Shown piece after piece: positions 5,671 to 46,236 of a stretch of 46,332 nucleotides of DNA. The notes beneath the pieces were generated by a model. That model was not told where the DNA came from. It saw only the letters and a program-made list of their open reading frames with translations, and did no database searches. The stretch is taken from NCBI GenBank assembly GCA_964248365.1, contig CAXTYC010000040.1:1-46332 (forward strand). The letters are read 5' to 3'. Source of the stretch: an uncultured Chroococcidiopsis sp. GTDB lineage: Bacteria; Cyanobacteriota; Cyanobacteriia; Cyanobacteriales; Chroococcidiopsidaceae. Position numbers and translations under genes: made by a program. Within the stretch, counting starts at the first letter, position 1; every line of letters begins with the position of its first letter.

Positions 5671-6107
5671 GTGTACAGCGGGTCAAATCACTTACATTCT
5701 CATAGGTATTGCGTTTACAGGATAACATTACATATAGTGTTTGTGAGGAAGTCCCGTAAAAAAGTCATAACCGCCCAAATTCTTGAGCGGCTTCGGGAAA
5801 TATTTTCTAGGTTGTGTCAAAACCAAAAAAGTGAGTTATTGGAATTTAGTGGCAAAAAGGATCATGTCCATCTACAAGTAGATATTTCGCCTGATGTTCC
5901 GCCATCAAAGCTAGTCAATACCCTCAAAACTATTTCTAGTCGGATGATTAGGAAAGAATTTGCCAACCACATTAATAAGTTTTATTGGAAACGTGTATTT
6001 TGGACGGGAGTGTACTGTGTGATTACGGCACGGTAGTGCGCCCCTAGAAGTTCTTAAAACTTACATCCGCCAATCAGAATGAACCTGTCGATCCTGTTTG
6101 CCGCTAA
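5671..6107 (+). pseudogene. tnpA: IS200-type Y1 transposase TnpA, frameshifted before the catalytic Tyr
   Basis: HUH motif DHVHL, LKTISSR, FW..VY; frameshift near 6031 puts APLEVLKTYIR in another frame. Confidence 0.88.
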
Positions 6108-6180
6108 CCCCGCCCATGATTACATGGGCGAGGAATGCGCGGCGGTTGATTGTTCAAAAGATCGAAAACATTCCACGCTT

Positions 6181-7184
6181 GCACAACAGATAACTCACAA
6201 AAGCCGAGGGTTTTCTTATCGCCAATGCGTGTACCGTTAAACTAGATACGACTCGCCGCATAATCCGTACGACCTGGAATATGGCGGAAAAAAATGGGAA
6301 ACCGATGTAACTAGGACGGCTCTTACTGGACTTGCCCCCGTCACAATACACAGCCCCCTTTTATACTTTAAGGGCAAGACAAAAAGCCTGTCCATTTTTT
6401 CAGCCCCAGCTCCCACACACAAAAGAGCCATTTTTTTCAGACGAGGTACTTAATTGAATTTAGGAGGCATCTGTTAAAGATCCTTCACTAAACTTCATAA
6501 TAACTGTTAGTTGGTCTTGCATCTCAATCCTACTGCCCTTAGCTATACCTTTGGCATGAAAAGATTTTGCGTCTGTTGAGGTAAAAAACTCTAGATAAAG
6601 ACCTTTTTTACCAGGAAAAGACGACATAAAAAATAAAGATAGCCGCGCTCGTTTAGGGTTATTTGTTGGTATTATGGGGGATCTGTGTTGAAGGCGCGGG
6701 AGGTAGTTCCTGAAAAATATTGTCAGCCCTCTTCTCGTTTTCTGTTGTGCGACGTTAAGTTGTTTGTTGGATTTAAGGGTGCCTCCTGCGAAGAGAAAAA
6801 AAGGGAAGGCTCTTTTGAGTGATTTGTTGTGCCGCGTAGGTTATCTATATAGTTTAAGCGCAACCTTTAATTCCTGCGCCTCACCTCGCGGCTGACAATA
6901 TTTTTTTGTCGCCATGTTCCAAGTCTTTATTTTTTACGCGCCTCCATCGGATTCCCAGGAGCCATCCGACATAAAAAAATAAGACAGCCTTCAACGGGAG
7001 GTTATTTGTCGGGGAGTCTTCTGCCAAAAATTGAGCCTGGCTTCATCAGTAATCTAGCTCGGCACAACAGACAATCTTTTGGGTTTAAAGCCAGCCTCAA
7101 TTTTTTAGGGCAACATTCCAAGGAGCCCTTGAGATCTTAATACAAGGCTGTCTTATTTTTTTAACGTATGTCGTGTTCCCAGGA
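6181..7184. repeat. array A of nested variable-stem hairpin modules
   Basis: IR pairs 6627-6639/6924-6936 (13 bp), 6713-6728/6890-6905 (16 bp), 6972-6991/7144-7163 (20 bp), 7026-7043/7088-7105 (17/18); recurrent GTTATYTGTTG-like motif; homologous to 43.75-44.36 kb. Confidence 0.85.
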
Positions 7185-7802
7185 TATGCCCTTTTGAGCG
7201 CAAATCCGCTTTTCATCAAAAATTGCTTTCTAAAATCCTTCTTTTTGAGCTATAGCAATTTTGAGATGAAAATACAAGATACTATGCAAGCTGACTTAAA
7301 AGACTATCTCCCGAATCTCATCACGTCGGTGGTGCTATTTATGCTCGCGTTGATGAGCGTTGCTCATCATTCCAGCTTTTAGTTTGCGCCTTCCATTGCC
7401 AAGCATAATCAGCTTTTAACCCAAGAAATCGGTATGAGTGCGTTTCTTTTGTTTACCATTTTTAGCCCGCTCTAAATTTACAGATCCTAGTAAAATGCGA
7501 TCGCTTCCCCGAAATAGATAAGCCTGAAACCCAGTGTACCAAAATGTTGACTTACCTTTTTTCACTTGCCTTGGGCGATCGCCATTGCTTTTGTTCAAAT
7601 TCTCCGCTTACCCCTGCACCCTTTTGTTCCGCTTTGCTTTGATTTGACATCTTTTATATAGCAATCCTATTTGAGTCATGAAATACGAGAGCAAAGTCGT
7701 CATTTGTCAATAGTCATTTGTCATTGGTGTTAAAAACTCGTACACTCGTACTATTGACGCGGGAACAGCCAAAATAATTGTTCATTGTTCATTGTTCATT
7801 GT

Positions 7803-8501: not shown

Positions 8502-8932
8502 AGAAATTTATGATGAATAAGACTAACTTGGATGAAAGCAACTAGCAATGATGGTAATTAGTCATGGGTGTTGAACGTGAGACGCGCAGCAGCAGAAACA
8601 GACGCGCGATCGCATCTTCTGGACAGACTTGTTAAAAATATAACTGGGGTAGTTTGCGCGAATCGATACATTTAAGCTACAAAATTTCTGAATGTAGAGG
8701 TAGCACAAAGTGATACTTATTATTTAAATTATGTTTAAATATTTTCACACCTGCGAATCATTTATACTCTAAAGTTAAAAACTTCAAGGGCTATGGCATC
8801 AGCGGGGCGACGAATGCTGTTTAGGATGGCTTTTATCGTTTCAGACGCGGTAATGACCAAACCGCTGGAAAGAGTTGGTGTGAGGCGCAAGGTTGGGTTG
8901 AAGGACTTGAGGCTGAGGAGAGAATAAACACA

Positions 8933-43484: not shown

Positions 43485-43745
43485 ATGAAGCGTCTTGAAT
43501 CTGCAACTCCAGCTCAAGCTCGACAAACAAGAGAGGAATTTGCCAACCCAGACGCTTACCTAGATTATGAATTATATCTGGCAGTTAAAAAGTTACCGCC
43601 CTTGTATACACGTTTGGTAGGGGTAACTTTAAGTTTAGCAGTATTTGGCGCGATCGCTTGGGCAGCTTTCTACAAAGTTGATGAGGTAGCTGTTGCTCCT
43701 GGTAAAATAATTCCCTCGGATCGAGTGCAGCCAGTACGAGCGTGC
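43485..43745 (+). pseudogene. HlyD-family secretion adaptor, N-terminal fragment truncated at array B
   Basis: TM helix then IAWA..KVDEVAVAPGKIIPS.RVQPVRA typical of HlyD N-termini; the remainder of the ORF to 43910 is read-through of repeat DNA. Confidence 0.8.
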
Positions 43746-44362
43746 GTCACCAACCACTCAAAAAGCCTGACTTATTTTTCAAAGGTAACCTCTTGTGCCG
43801 CTGTGTTTGGGTTATCTGTTGGTATTACGGGGTGGGAGGCGAAGGAACCTGAAATAAATAGTCAGCCCTATTTCGGTTATTTGTGTTGCCCCAAAGGAAG
43901 CTTGAAATAAAAATCCAGCTAGGTATTGGGGCGGAGTGTCAGCGGAGTCAGCAACCCCCGCTGAGCCTCCTTTATATTGCACTGGTACGAAGGATCTTTA
44001 AAGAGGGCTGGATTTTTATTTTTGCGCTAAATGTAAAACAGGTGATCTATGGGGTTTGAGGGCTGACTATTTATTTTTGCGCGTTCCTTCCAGATCTGTG
44101 TTTATGGCTCGTGAGGTTAGCGCAAAAATTACCCTTGGCTTATTTAAGGGATCTGTTGGTATTGATGAGTAGTTAGTGTTGTTTGAAGCCGAGGGTTTTT
44201 TTGTCGCTATATTCCAAGTCTTTACTTTTTAGAGGTTACAGCGGATACCCAGGGTTTGACGACATAAAAATAAGGCAAGCCTTGTATTAGGGTTATTTGT
44301 TGGCATTATGAGGGATCGATTTTGAAGGCTTGCCTTATTTTTACTGGTTACAGCGGATACCC
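43745..44362. repeat. array B of nested variable-stem hairpin modules
   Basis: IR pairs 43852-43869/44059-44076 (18 bp), 43905-43919/44007-44021 (15 bp), 44124-44141/44186-44202 (imperfect), 44265-44283/44325-44343 (19 bp); 17-bp direct repeat 44234-44250/44346-44362. Confidence 0.88.
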
Positions 44363-45184
44363 TGAATTTTCAGCCTCTTTTGTTTCAATCCGTAACAAAT
44401 TTCCTGTATTTGTTGTCACGATATAAGTCTTATTCCAAACTGCCACTCCAGATCCAATGCCCAAGCCACGAGCGCCCAGATCGATAATAGTGGAAACAGT
44501 ACCGTCTAGATTTACTTGCAACAGATTTCCAGTATTACTGGTAACAATCAACAAGTTATCTACTTCTACTACGTCAAAGGGAATACCTTTGCCTGCACTA
44601 ACTAAATTTACAATCGGTGTTACCTCACCATCCCAGCCCACTCGCAGCAAGTCACCGCTTGAGCAACCGACAATAAAGCCATTGTTGCTTGTAGTCACGG
44701 CAAAAGGTATGCCAAAACCAGCCATGTCTGCCAAAGTGGAGATGGAACCGTTACGCTCTAACCGAATCAGATGCCCTTGAGAACTGGCAACATCACTAGC
44801 AGTACCGACAACGATGAAATCATCACTAGCTGCCACGCCAAAAGGTCCGCCAAAGCTACCGCACACTTGCGACAACTGGGCAATGGTGAAGAAAAAACCA
44901 CTTTTAGTTATTCGCAACAAGCGATCGCCTGCCTCCAAAGCTGAAATAGTAACCAAAAAGCTGCCATTATTCTCGGCAATGCCGAACGGAACGCCGTAGC
45001 CAGACACATCTGCTAACGTCACCACCTCAAGGTTTTGCTTCACCCGCAGTAAACCACGATCTAAGGTTGGCACAATAATGTCACCATCGCTGAGTGCAAC
45101 CCCCTGGAAAGGAATAATTTGCAGACCTTGGGTGACGAGTGATACCAACGTTTTCCGACCAACCTCTTGTGAATTTATATCCAT
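44348..45184 (-). CDS. hypothetical beta-propeller-like repeat protein (Vgb/SMP-30-like)
   Basis: About six ~43-aa repeats G.PFG(V/I)A....(F/L)IV.....G.LLR(V/I)..DG.V.T(L/I)A. Confidence 0.75.
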   Translation of the reverse strand: MDINSQEVGRKTLVSLVTQGLQIIPFQGVALSDGDIIVPTLDRGLLRVKQNLEVVTLADVSGYGVPFGIAENNGSFLVTISALEAGDRLLRITKSGFFFTIAQLSQVCGSFGGPFGVAASDDFIVVGTASDVASSQGHLIRLERNGSISTLADMAGFGIPFAVTTSNNGFIVGCSSGDLLRVGWDGEVTPIVNLVSAGKGIPFDVVEVDNLLIVTSNTGNLLQVNLDGTVSTIIDLGARGLGIGSGVAVWNKTYIVTTNTGNLLRIETKEAENSGYPL

Positions 45185-45481
45185 TAAATAAATTTAGAGC
45201 AGCTAATAAGACTCGCTGACAAGTCACCACACGAGCGCTGTGAAAGCGCTCCCCATATTGTAGGACTAGTTAAGCATAAGCCACCAGAGTCTGATGAACA
45301 GTTTTACATTTAGCGCAAAAAATAAAAATTAAGCCCTATATTAGGGTTTATTGGTCAGAGCAAGCCGGAGTCGAAGGGAGAATCGCTCCTCCCCACTCTC
45401 CTTCAAAACCGTGCATGATACTTTCGCATCAGACGGCTCCTCTAGATTTGGTGTACTGTCAAACACACCTCATTCCCCAAA

Positions 45482-46236
45482 TTACGGGTTAAGGCTCGGC
45501 ACTATTTCAGCCGGATTATTGCCAGAATGCCTGTCAATTGCAGTCTTTTGGTCGTGGCAGTGTCGATGTAATGCCTGGAGATTGTTCCAAGTATCCTTAC
45601 CTGCTTTAGCTTTTGGTATGATGTGGTCAATCTCAATCAAGTCATCACTTTTGAAAAACAATTCACAGTGGGAACATCTTCCTTTTTGTGGCTGTTTCTG
45701 TTATCGTTGGAATCCCAAGGGGGCGTTTTTCCTCCGTTCCAGGTTTAGGTATCCAAACCCGTCTGGTTGGTTTTACCCTTTGAGATAGTCTCATTTTGTT
45801 AACTACTTTAAGTCTTTGGGCTGGTGTCAAGGATTTTACTCCATCAGTCCCCGCGGTTTTCTTGCCCTGGTTATCTTGTGAAACTCGACGGACAGCTAGA
45901 CATTTTGCTGCCCAAGACCTCATCAGTGTTTTCTGGAGCCTGTGAACTGCTTTGACATCCAACGAATCTGGCGACAAAAAATACGGGCGACCCTCCTCAT
46001 CCGAATACGTCACTACGCCCAAAAGATCTTTAAAACAGGGTCGCCCGTATTTTTCTAGCTTTGCCTCCCCACGACTTGAGGCGGATGTTTCTTCGTTTTT
46101 GCACCTTGTATACACGTTTTTCCAGTTTTTTCCAGGGTATATCCTTCCAATCGAGTTCGAATTCTACTCCGGCGTAAACTGGTATGTCGTTTTCCCATAC
46201 CATCCTGAAACTATGTTCGGCTTTAGTCTTATTCAT
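45482..46236 (-). pseudogene. ltrA: intron-encoded reverse transcriptase/maturase with frameshifts, 108-bp insertion and deleted RT core
   Basis: W..IPWKKLEKRVYK.QKR, AVRRVSQDNQGKKTAG.DG, RRVWIPKPG..EKRPLGIPTI, then in another frame QKGRCSHC..EIDHIIP....GKD...NLQALHRHCHD.KT (HNH); no YADD present. Confidence 0.9.
45961..46068. mobile_element. solo variable-stem hairpin module inserted in the RT gene
   Basis: 18-bp perfect IR 45977-45994/46037-46054 (AAAAATACGGGCGACCCT); 36 extra codons between ASSRG and DVKAV. Confidence 0.85.

What the first reader, a model, noticed from the sequence alone, without database searches (positions are those of the whole stretch)
43745..44362. Candidate undescribed mobile system: ~110-bp hairpin modules with a fixed frame but a different, self-complementary stem in every copy
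Seen: arms follow AAA(AA)T-[variable]-(G/A)CCYT with an exact inverted partner. Examples are AAATAAATAGTCAGCCCT (43852/44059), AAATAAAAATCCAGC nested inside it (43905/44007), TAAAAATAAGGCAAGCCTT (44265/44325), AAAAATATTGTCAGCC (6713/6890), TAAAAAAATAAGACAGCCTT (6972/7144) and AAAAATACGGGCGACCCT (45977/46037). Shared accessory motifs are flanking CGACA/TGTCGC or GCGC, loop GGTTATYTGTTG, and GATCTT(T)AA..AGG. Known: MITE TIRs conserve sequence between copies, whereas sites recognised as folded ssDNA (integron attC, CTX attP) or tyrosine-recombinase sites with a variable overlap conserve pairing instead. Inference: these are non-autonomous recombination or insertion modules acted on in trans, which stack into one another to build arrays. 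No cognate enzyme is in the window and novelty cannot be confirmed without a search.
Basis: partly seen in the sequence, partly recalled or inferred. Interest (0 to 1): 0.9.

Follow-up and report, generated by a model that had tools for sequence, protein, structure and literature searches.

The report
Nested hairpin mini-transposons of a cyanobacterium
The flagged stretch is a pile-up of small, gene-less jumping DNA elements that fold into long hairpins, an ordinary kind of selfish DNA whose two arms stay complementary unusually well as their sequence drifts.

Summary
All six inverted repeats are exact; the window holds 6 perfect repeats of 15 nt or more against 0 in 100 shuffles. They belong to a family of about 113 loci in this HIP1-rich cyanobacterial genome. 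Stem pairing covaries strongly: 87.6% of cells paired against 67.1% shuffled, 0 of 500.

The reading as a new folded-DNA recombination system is not supported. [quoted passage not shown] One subtype has 11 copies at different sites, each flanked by a 2-bp duplication (TA ten times, TC once), and paralogous empty sites carry a single TA. A relative's filled site is empty here, and a 98.8%-identical strain lacks one 112-bp unit.

"Fixed frame, different stem in every copy" is overstated. Loops vary more than arms (45% against 61% pairwise identity), and some stems recur up to six times. Loops lie in both orientations relative to the flanks, which points to arm-to-arm exchange.

No mobilising enzyme was identified. 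I found no catalogue match, but could not read Elhai 2008. Verdict: a new member of a known kind.

The parts
43763..43779 (.). Orphan right arm (AAGCCTGACTTATTTTT) abutting the broken 3' end of the HlyD-like reading frame 43485-43745. Its left arm and loop are missing.
   Evidence: Read. The arm matches the family arm AAAAATAAGTCAGGCTT seen elsewhere. ORF.
43784..43832 (+). Fragment of a type II module: flank GGTAACCTCT, a shortened arm, and the first half of the loop (GCTGTGTTTGGGTTATCTGTTGGTATTACGGGG). It is cut by the next insertion.
   Evidence: compared with complete copies C18:6231 and C41:28961.
43833..44093 (+). Outer type I module: flank TGGGAGGCGAAGGAACCTG, arms 43852-43869 / 44059-44076, flank TTGCGCGTTCCTTCCAG. 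Its loop carries the next module.
   Evidence: I2, 18 nt, 100%. Flanks compared.
43894..44036 (-). Nested type I module: flank AAGGAAGCTTG, arms 43905-43919 / 44007-44021, flank TTGCGCTAAATGTAA. Its 87-nt loop holds a further GC-rich insert of about 40 nt (about 43931-43970).
   Evidence: I4, 15 nt, 100%. Loop compared with the 48-nt loops of C7:143658 and C74:1987.
44117..44219 (-). Type I-like module with imperfect arms (AAAAATTACCCTTGGCTT / AAGCCGAGGGTTTTTTT) and flanks TTAGCGC / GTCGCTATATTCCAAG.
   Evidence: Weak inverted repeat 44018/44117. The same flank words occur at 6906-6923.
44220..44250 (-). Arm fragment (TCTTTACTTTTTA) plus the CCGCTGTAACC-side flank of a second type II unit.
   Evidence: row C40 - 44245.
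44251..44362 (-). Complete type II module (112 bp): flank AGGGTTTGACGACA, arms 44265-44283 / 44325-44343, 41-nt loop, flank CTGGTTACAGCGGATACCC. It is absent from a near-identical strain.
   Evidence: I1, 19 nt, 100%. DNA fold -18.1 / -17.3 kcal/mol, z -5.6 / -6.4; an X1 contig joins 44233 to 44346, skipping 112 nt, with 17 nt ambiguous. Best CM hit of the window at 92.3 bits.
45300..45363 (+). Left half of a type I module (TTTACATTTAGCGCAAAAAATAAAAATTAAGCCCT plus half a loop), interrupted by the 3' end of a group II intron.
   Evidence: (Intron_gpII domains V-VI at 45364-45441, minus strand, 47.3 bits).
45962..46070 (+). Type I module (GGCGACA flank): arms 45977-45994 / 46037-46054, 42-nt loop. 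It lies at the 5' edge of the recognisable reverse-transcriptase coding region of the intron.
   Evidence: I3, 18 nt, 100%. RVT_N in ORF 45663-46112, minus strand. RT homology 45938-45690; fold z -3.9 / -4.8.
6610..6936 (+). Type II-like module (flank GACGACA; arm TAAAAAATAAAGATAGCCGCGC; loop with GGGTTATTTGTTGG and GGGGGATCTGTG). Its right arm is split by a 224-bp insertion and resumes at 6924-6936.
   Evidence: I5, 13 nt, 100%, 284 nt apart. Sequence.
6700..6923 (-). Inserted type I module: flank GAGGTAGTTCCTG, arms 6713-6728 / 6890-6905, flank TTGTCGCCATGTTCCAAG. Its interior holds a further degenerate copy (6792-6888).
   Evidence: I3, 16 nt, 100%. nhmmer hit at 6792-6888.
6960..7190 (+). 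Type II-like module: flank CCGACA, arms 6972-6991 / 7144-7163. A further module is nested in its loop (arms 7026-7043 / 7088-7105, 94%).
   Evidence: I1, 20 nt, 100%; I2, 18 nt, 94%. nhmmer hit at 7002-7130.
6160..6235 (+). Half module (loop plus right arm AAGCCGAGGGTTTTCTT and flank ATCGCCAATG) just downstream of the IS200/IS605 element.
   Evidence: Read by comparison with 44187-44212. Not scored by any tool.

Best explanation
The modules are a lineage-restricted superfamily of very short (about 100-112 bp), non-coding hairpin MITEs. Each has short asymmetric ends, an 18-20 bp arm (A-run, a drifting middle, then CCKT), an unstructured loop of about 41 nt with two direct GAT-containing boxes, and the complementary arm ending in a T-run.

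Shown. They are mobile, they make short target duplications, they differ between close strains and species, and they land in one another and in other mobile genes.

Inferred. They are cut and pasted in trans by DDE-type transposases: an IS630/Tc1-mariner-like enzyme for the TA-duplicating type III, and possibly other enzymes for types I and II, whose ends and duplications differ. The hairpin is kept because an element shorter than the bending length of DNA can bring its two ends together only by extruding as a cruciform or folding back.

Also inferred. The arms stay complementary while drifting because the two arms exchange sequence inside one element. This could happen by recombination between the arms, or by template switching at quasi-palindromes during replication. 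Either would flip the loop and copy one arm onto the other.
For: A real repeat family. nhmmer finds 137 hits, which reduce to 113 loci, 96 of them full length. A covariance model finds 82 matches in this genome.

Mobility.
- Eleven type III copies lie at 11 different sites, each flanked by the same dinucleotide on both sides: TA ten times and TC once.
- Paralogues of the interrupted genes carry a single TA (C19 and C37 against C37:308-435) or a single dinucleotide (C8 against C37:22397) at the insertion point.
- G005 has a type I copy of about 100 nt where G000 C52:17768/17769 is uninterrupted. The flanks are 91% identical over 1.5 kb on each side.
- A contig of run X1 (14 differences in 1162 nt) lacks exactly the 112-bp unit 44234-44345.

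Patchy spread. The model matches 5 of 41 relatives: G000 82, G014 30, G005 19, G038 4, G003 1. One type III end word occurs only in G000 of 28 family genomes.

Insertion into other mobile DNA. Copies sit in IS630-like, DDE_5 and group II intron RT reading frames. The family is clustered: 30 of 113 loci have a neighbour within 300 bp against 1.4 expected.

Structure is kept at the DNA level. 87.6% of cells are paired against 67.1% in shuffles (0 of 500) and 44-60% in slid controls. There are 253 double-change cells against 88.5 expected. Only 38 of 1157 cells are G-T. Both strands fold equally well.

Arm exchange. As oriented in alignment A1, the loop lies either way round relative to the asymmetric flanks: type II 7 against 6, type I 18 against 5, type III 12 against 1, with 16 of 65 rows unclassified (my tally). 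Type III arms occur as two alleles in all four combinations: 4 a/a', 4 a/b', 2 b/a', 1 b/b'.
Against: No autonomous element with matching ends was found. The type III end occurs only in the MITE copies. The IS630-like element on C86 has its own unrelated 24-nt terminal repeat.

DDE_3 genes are in 38 of 41 relatives, so their presence says nothing about the modules.

The type I duplication is uncertain. TT fits the G005/G000 pair only if one adjacent base was substituted, and TA fits many copies almost as well. Type II is bracketed by the same word (T)GGGAA in nearly all copies. That may be a target-specific 4-6 bp duplication or part of the element.

The ends are poor inverted repeats outside the hairpin. 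Arm-to-arm correction was not observed directly, and the six mismatched chimeras show it is not fast. The alignment used for covariation contains 36 of 65 copies that were first picked for perfect stems.
Confidence: 0.7

Rival explanations
1. The hairpin core (arm, loop, arm) is itself the mobile unit. An unknown enzyme reads it as folded DNA and places it into different carrier sequences, in the way reported for the small dispersed repeats (SDRs) of Nostocaceae, or as REPINs are moved by RAYT.
For: The same kind of core sits between three or more unrelated pairs of flanks with different duplications. One type II frame lacks the core (C50:19059). Cores lie in both orientations within a given frame. 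Pairing is conserved and sequence is not. Smaller inserts of 24-40 nt do sit in some loops. IS200/IS605 Y1 genes lie beside two arrays (window 5671-6036 and C7:145835-146119).
Against: In type III the unique flanks begin outside the end words, so ends and core moved together 11 times. Among pairs with core identity of 0.87 or more, flank identity is 0.87 or more in all but two pairs, which score 0.64 and 0.75. The frame without a core can equally be a palindrome deletion. Y1_Tnp is found in 40 of 41 relatives against 5 of 41 for the modules. The window's TnpA has its own short GC hairpin and is frameshifted.
Confidence: 0.13
2. The modules are recombination sites read as folded single strands (like integron attC or CTX attP) or tyrosine-recombinase sites with a variable overlap. 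Arrays would then be built by site-specific integration.
For: Structure rather than sequence is conserved. Arrays and nesting are common. The 112-bp unit missing in X1 is bracketed by a 17-nt direct repeat, as an att core would be.
Against: Target duplications vary with the site: TA and TC. No open reading frame cassettes lie between modules. No integrase is linked; the only tyrosine-recombinase trace is a fragment read by eye. The 17-nt repeat is explained by a short duplication plus the 12 nt that two adjacent type II units share at their ends. Insertion sites are scattered through unrelated genes.
Confidence: 0.05
3. The modules are selected host elements: bidirectional transcription terminators or a family of small structured RNAs.
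For: An A-run, a GC-containing stem and a T-run resemble a two-way intrinsic terminator. Pairing is conserved.
Against: The 41-nt unstructured loop is unlike a terminator. G-T pairs are rare: 38 of 1157 cells, or 21% of all non-Watson-Crick cells, which is what neutral DNA decay gives. Many copies lie inside broken genes, inside each other and in tandem. The family is absent from most relatives. No Rfam family matches.
Confidence: 0.05

Closest known systems
RUP (repeat unit of pneumococcus), the 107-bp MITE of Streptococcus pneumoniae thought to be moved by IS630-Spn1
   Same: [quoted passage not shown] That RUP duplicates TA is my recollection, not from a call. Type III here is about 110 bp, duplicates TA, and sits in transposase genes.
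   Different: RUP has terminal repeats similar to its IS. Here no IS with matching ends was found. The stems also drift with compensation, and there are several end types on one hairpin design.
Correia/NEMIS elements of Neisseria and Stowaway MITEs of plants (TA-duplicating hairpin MITEs)
   Same: Short, AT-rich, foldback-forming, TA duplication, transposase acting in trans. All of this is recalled; only the sizes of Correia in Table 1 of PMC3184786 were seen.
   Different: Those families keep sequence-conserved terminal repeats of 20 bp or more. Here only the A/T-run and a few end bases are conserved, and 52 of 65 arms differ.
Small dispersed repeats SDR1-8 and 'minitransposons' of Nostoc punctiforme and relatives (Elhai et al. 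2008, Genome Res 18:1484)
   Same: Heterocyst-type cyanobacterial genomes, nesting to several levels, hairpins supported by compensatory changes, and elements embedded in minitransposons. This is from my recollection of the abstract. The paper is not held; only citing passages were seen.
   Different: SDRs are 21-27 nt (recalled), while these units are about 100-112 nt with target duplications. Inserts of 24-40 nt that may be SDR-like sit inside some loops here. I could not compare sequences, so overlap with the 'minitransposons' of that paper cannot be excluded.
Nezha MITE (Anabaena variabilis, Nostoc sp.; ISNpu3-like)
   Same: A cyanobacterial MITE with a stable predicted fold and empty/filled sites between species (passages of PMC3184786).
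   Different: Nezha is about 130-170 bp, and the template copy used in PMC6042816 has a 10-bp direct repeat. Here the duplication is 2 bp (type III), and no parent IS shares the ends.
REPIN/RAYT and IS200/IS605-derived palindromic elements
   Same: Hairpin-forming, non-autonomous and clustered. Y1 transposase genes lie near two arrays.
   Different: Those leave no target duplication, and each arm is itself a short GC palindrome with a GTAG/CGTC tag (abstract and passages of PMC3733652). Here the duplication varies with the target, the arms are not self-palindromic, and Y1 genes do not track the family.

Membership tests
MITE (non-autonomous DDE-type mini-transposon) | Small, non-coding, many copies at unrelated sites | tested here: met
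   Units of 100-112 bp; 113 loci; unique flanks.
MITE (non-autonomous DDE-type mini-transposon) | Target-site duplication on insertion | tested here: met
   Type III: the same dinucleotide on both sides in 11 of 11 copies (TA x10, TC x1), and a single copy of it at paralogous empty sites. Types I and II: a duplication is likely, but its length is uncertain.
MITE (non-autonomous DDE-type mini-transposon) | Empty and filled sites in relatives | tested here: met
   G005 filled, G000 empty. An X1 contig lacks 44234-44345. Only 1 orthologous pair was found; 2 other G000 loci had no conserved synteny.
MITE (non-autonomous DDE-type mini-transposon) | Terminal inverted repeats | tested here: inconclusive
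   The long arms are inverted repeats, but the outermost 10-15 nt match poorly. Type III shares AGTA....GTC; type I shares only GGC.
MITE (non-autonomous DDE-type mini-transposon) | A full-length IS with the same ends that supplies the transposase | tested here: not met
   None in G000. The end word is absent from 27 other family genomes. The IS630-like copy on C86 has other ends. A 17-mer search in 4 carrier genomes stayed near the control level.
Integron attC / CTX attP-type folded single-strand recombination site | Linked integrase; insertion without target duplication at one specific site; cassettes with genes | tested here: not met
   Pfam found no integrase among the 93 ORFs scanned on module-rich contigs and the window end. 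Duplications vary with the site. There are no genes between units.
REPIN / RAYT | A single-copy Y1 (RAYT) gene flanked by the repeats, whose presence tracks them; no target duplication | tested here: not met
   Y1_Tnp is in 40 of 41 relatives, the modules in 5 of 41. The window's gene scores as IS200/IS605 TnpA (NF033573, 3.4e-32) and is frameshifted. Duplications are present.
Nezha | Size of about 130-170 bp, 10-bp direct repeat, ends like ISNpu3 | tested here: not met
   Unit size and the 2-bp duplication differ. The Nezha sequence itself was not available for alignment.
Nostocaceae SDR / minitransposons (Elhai 2008) | Sequence identity to SDR1-8 or to the published minitransposons | not testable with these tools
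   The paper and its sequences are not held. PLSDB plasmids gave no blastn match to 43745-44362.
Known structured RNA (Rfam) | A match to a curated covariance model | tested here: not met
   Across the whole window, only a group II intron and a tRNA reach the gathering score. In 43700-44400 the best hits are E 0.44 and 0.79, far under their thresholds.

The most novel reading that the evidence does not exclude
The hairpin core could be a portable structural cassette that an as yet unknown trans-acting enzyme recognises by shape: an extruded cruciform or folded single strand with two GAT boxes in an open loop. It would have been captured by, or would move between, several unrelated mini-transposon frames. 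Its two arms would be actively symmetrised by loop flipping and template switching. If so, this would be a bacterial mobile element whose recognition code is pairing rather than sequence.
Probability: 0.12. Interest if true: 0.7.

Novelty: new member of a known kind. Interest (0 to 1): 0.3.

Why it matters
For annotation: about 113 loci in this genome, including the whole of 43745-44362 and 6610-7190, are selfish repeats. They break genes here (a HlyD-like gene, several transposases, an intron reverse transcriptase), they fragment the assembly (65 of 113 loci lie on contigs under 50 kb), and they differ between near-identical strains. They should therefore be masked before gene calling, and they could serve as strain markers.

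For biology, the family is a clean natural data set. It has 18 stem positions, 52 arm variants and loops in both orientations, which makes it useful for asking how very short palindromic transposons keep their arms matched. It also shows one hairpin design riding on several kinds of ends. It does not open a new class of system.

Tried and rejected
1. TTAC as an IS608-like target for type I. Rejected: the empty site in G000 has no TTAC, so it belongs to the element.
2. The stem as a copy of target DNA made at each insertion. Rejected: 11 type III copies at different sites share two arm alleles, and G038 carries the same arm.
3. Stems as hypervariable against a fixed loop. Rejected: loops are the more variable part.
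4. Parent IS by long inverted repeats (400-4000 bp apart). This found only pairs of separate modules, for example C37:11217-12408 and C86:2432-3327, which bracket broken genes.
5. Parent IS by end words: searches found nothing beyond MITE copies or noise. The single genome-contig scan with a 15-mer returned only chance hits in unrelated phyla. It was a poor choice of pattern and taught nothing.
6. Phyletic link to DDE_3 or Y1_Tnp: both are nearly universal among the 41 genomes.
7. Orthologous filled sites, to test in-place stem evolution. Two G000 loci searched in five relatives had no conserved synteny. Among the 8 of 19 G005 matches that were fetched as loci, only L052 had both flanks contiguous in G000, and that site is empty there.
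8. PLSDB plasmids: no match. Rfam: none.
9. Expression: no RNA holder was listed among the sequencing runs, so this question remains open.
10. The other joints and 'letters between' (for example 43867 to 44039 with 28 other letters) come from low-identity pieces. They may be paralogous copies in a metagenome and were not used.
11. Earlier notes of this scan held nothing on this family.
12. Elhai 2008 could not be opened.
Full report
**What is there.** The window is contig C40 of a 5.58-Mb, 102-contig assembly with 43% G+C and 11,112 copies of GCGATCGC (HIP1), so it is a cyanobacterium. The window has 6 perfect inverted repeats of 15 nt or more at spacing 25-400, against none in 100 dinucleotide shuffles. 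As single-stranded DNA, three complete units fold on either strand into one long stem with an open loop of about 41 nt (z from -3.9 to -6.4). The flagged 618 bases are entirely built of such units and their fragments. In order they are:
- an orphan arm at the broken end of a HlyD-like frame;
- a type II fragment;
- a type I unit that carries a second type I unit in its loop;
- an imperfect type I unit;
- a type II fragment;
- a complete 112-bp type II unit (see the parts list).

**How large the family is.** A scan of the whole genome for perfect inverted repeats (13 nt or more, spacing 25-400) gave 572 pairs, of which 108 start with an A-run followed by T. A sequence profile built from the 66 simplest copies finds 137 hits. 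These reduce to 113 loci, 96 of them full length. Of those 96, 55 have perfect ungapped arms, 18 have one mismatch, 5 have two, 1 has three, and 17 have arms under 12 nt by that measure; this last group is gapped, chimeric or interrupted. So perfect pairing is the rule but not universal.

**Pairing is conserved, and at the DNA level.** I aligned the 65 of 96 full-length loci that lay in fetched DNA. On 18 stem pairs:
- 87.6% of cells pair, against 67.1 +/- 0.9% when the 3' letters are shuffled (0 of 500) and 44-60% when the partner is slid by 1-3 columns;
- 253 cells carry changes on both sides, against 88.5 expected;
- the covariation score is 0.519 against 0.160.

One caveat: 36 of the 65 had been chosen as perfect hairpins. 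Only 38 of 1157 cells are G-T, about a fifth of all non-Watson-Crick cells, which is what random decay of DNA gives. An RNA under selection would tolerate more. Both strands fold alike.

**The "fixed frame, variable stem" picture is skewed.** Mean pairwise identity is 45% for the loop and 60.6% for the arm. Arm identity rises with loop identity: pairs with loops 90% or more alike have arms 88.5% alike, and 48% of those pairs have identical arms. There are 52 different left arms among 65 copies, but one arm occurs six times. A relative in another genus (G038) has that same arm with a diverged loop. The arms vary around a consensus (AAAAATAAG-N-CAGCC-KT). Stems are therefore lineage markers that drift with compensation. 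They are not made anew at each insertion.

**They are transposons.** The flanks define at least three types.

*Type III* is the clearest. Eleven copies lie at eleven different places, all reading dinucleotide, AGTAGGTCGTCTG, hairpin, ATGAC...GTACT, then the same dinucleotide. The dinucleotide is TA ten times and TC once. Where a copy interrupts a gene that has paralogues, the paralogues carry a single TA (C19 and a second C37 locus) or a single dinucleotide (C8) at that point. On C86, two copies sit inside one IS630-like transposase gene. From, read by eye, taking out the downstream copy with one of its two flanking dinucleotides leaves the reading frame open.

*Type I.* A copy of about 100 nt in the closest relative, G005, lies where this genome is uninterrupted (C52:17768/17769; flanks 91% identical over 1.5 kb each side). 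This fits a TT duplication with one neighbouring substitution. TA cannot be excluded from the copies in this genome.

*Type II.* Units are bracketed by (T)GGGAA on both sides in nearly all copies. One paralogue comparison fits a 4-5-bp duplication.

*Strain difference.* In run X1, a contig that differs at 14 of 1162 positions joins 44233 directly to 44346, so it lacks exactly the complete type II unit of the finding. The 17 ambiguous letters at that joint are explained by a short duplication plus the 12 nt that this unit shares with the next type II unit. This also shows how tandem arrays arise: repeated insertion at a target that each insertion regenerates.

**Where they live.** The covariance model matches 82 places in this genome, 19 in G005 (same genus), 30 in G014 and 4 in G038 (other genera), 1 in G003, and none in 36 other relatives under the stricter filters. 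Spread is therefore patchy, as expected of mobile DNA. Copies are strongly clustered: 30 of 113 have a neighbour within 300 bp against 1.4 expected, and 65 of 113 lie on contigs under 50 kb, which hold 18.8% of the assembly. Of 93 reading frames scanned on module-rich contigs and the window end, the interrupted or adjacent ones include IS630-like (DDE_3 with HTH), DDE_5, and group II intron reverse-transcriptase genes. In the window, a unit sits at the edge of the intron's RT region, and the intron itself has landed in the loop of another unit. [quoted passage not shown]

**How the arms may stay matched.** With all rows oriented by their loop, the asymmetric flanks lie either way round. Type II has the CCGATGTAAC side on the left 7 times and on the right 6 times. 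Type I splits 18 against 5, and type III 12 against 1; 16 of 65 rows could not be typed (my tally). So the loop has been flipped between the arms many times, which is what recombination between inverted arms does. The two type III arm alleles occur in all four combinations (4, 4, 2 and 1 copies), which shows exchange among copies as well. I infer that exchange between the two arms, or template switching at quasi-palindromes during replication (a known mutational route, recalled from Ripley and from Dutra and Lovett), copies one arm onto the other and turns single changes into compensated ones. This was not observed directly. The six mismatched chimeras show that it is not immediate, and that a perfect outer stem is not needed for a copy to sit at a new site.

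**Who moves them.** This is unknown. A 2-bp TA duplication is the hallmark of IS630/Tc1-mariner transposases (established knowledge). IS630-like genes exist here (21 DDE_3 matches), but also in 38 of 41 relatives. The one copy whose ends I could define has unrelated terminal repeats, and no long element carries the MITE ends. An IS200/IS605 TnpA pseudogene lies 570 bp from the 6610-7190 array (5671-6036; NF033573, 3.4e-32; frameshifted before the segment that should carry the catalytic tyrosine, by my reading), and another lies inside the C7 array. But Y1 genes are in 40 of 41 relatives, such enzymes leave no duplication, and these elements carry their own short GC hairpins. I therefore take the adjacency to reflect shared dumping grounds.

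**Comparison with what is known.** No Rfam family matches, and no PLSDB plasmid matches. Nezha differs in size and has a 10-bp repeat. The nearest kinds are TA-duplicating hairpin MITEs (RUP, Correia, Stowaway) and, in the same group of organisms, the nested small dispersed repeats and minitransposons of Elhai et al. 2008. I could not open that paper. Four literature searches found no description of this family. They cover only open-access text, and Elhai 2008 and Lin 2011 were not readable.

**Verdict.** Interest is modest (0.3). What lifts it slightly above routine is the clean evidence for compensated stem drift, loop flipping, and one hairpin design on several kinds of ends.

Noticed in passing
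window 5671-6090: IS200/IS605-family TnpA (Y1_Tnp 4.2e-33; NF033573 3.4e-32). The frame stops at 6036, and the segment that should hold the catalytic tyrosine continues in another frame up to about 6090, so it looks like a pseudogene or a sequencing error. A short GC hairpin follows at about 6110-6135.
   Followed up: partly
window 45364-45441 (-) and onwards to the contig end: The 3' end of a group II intron (domains V-VI, 47.3 bits) abuts half of a type I module, so the intron inserted into the loop of a module. Its reverse-transcriptase region (RVT_N, 45663-46112) is in turn interrupted or edged by another module.
   Followed up: partly
window 43485-43745: A HlyD-like N-terminal reading frame, so judged by eye (Pfam gave no hit at 1e-5), ends abruptly at an orphan module arm, and the rest of the gene is missing. 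A 93%-identical stretch lies on C51:25282-25567. This suggests a deletion or rearrangement at a module.
   Followed up: no
L030 (G000 C74) 1963-2110 against L026 (G000 C7) 8634-8761: Two copies with the same arms differ by a 24-nt insert in the loop (CTTCGCCCCTCACTTGTCGAAGGG-like). This is the size class of the Nostocaceae small dispersed repeats. A GC-rich insert of about 40 nt sits in the loop at window 43931-43970.
   Followed up: no
G000 C37:11217-12408 (L011): Two identical chimeric type III copies in inverted orientation bracket 1,072 bp. That stretch holds a DDE_5 transposase fragment and, by eye, a tyrosine-recombinase C-terminal fragment. It is either a possible composite transposon or just two insertions.
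   Followed up: partly
G000 C50:19059 and C3:85640: One type II frame has no hairpin core (only AAAAAATGAG/ATTTTTT remains). In another, the left arm and loop are replaced by heptamer repeats.
   Followed up: no
L064 (G000 C20) 1357-1511: A different repeat of about 150 nt lies directly beside a module. It has several dozen partial matches in G005 and a few in G001, so it is another unnamed repeat family.
   Followed up: no
G005, G014 loci L049, L053, L056, L059, L065, L069, L071: The relatives carry a further end type not seen among the typed copies here (GAGCCGATGCC ... AGGCAAYATTC) on the same hairpin design.
   Followed up: no
G000 genome-wide: Many tandem heptamer arrays (CAGTTAC, CCCCTAG and similar) show up as long-range inverted matches. 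These are the STRR-type repeats typical of heterocyst-forming cyanobacteria.
   Followed up: no
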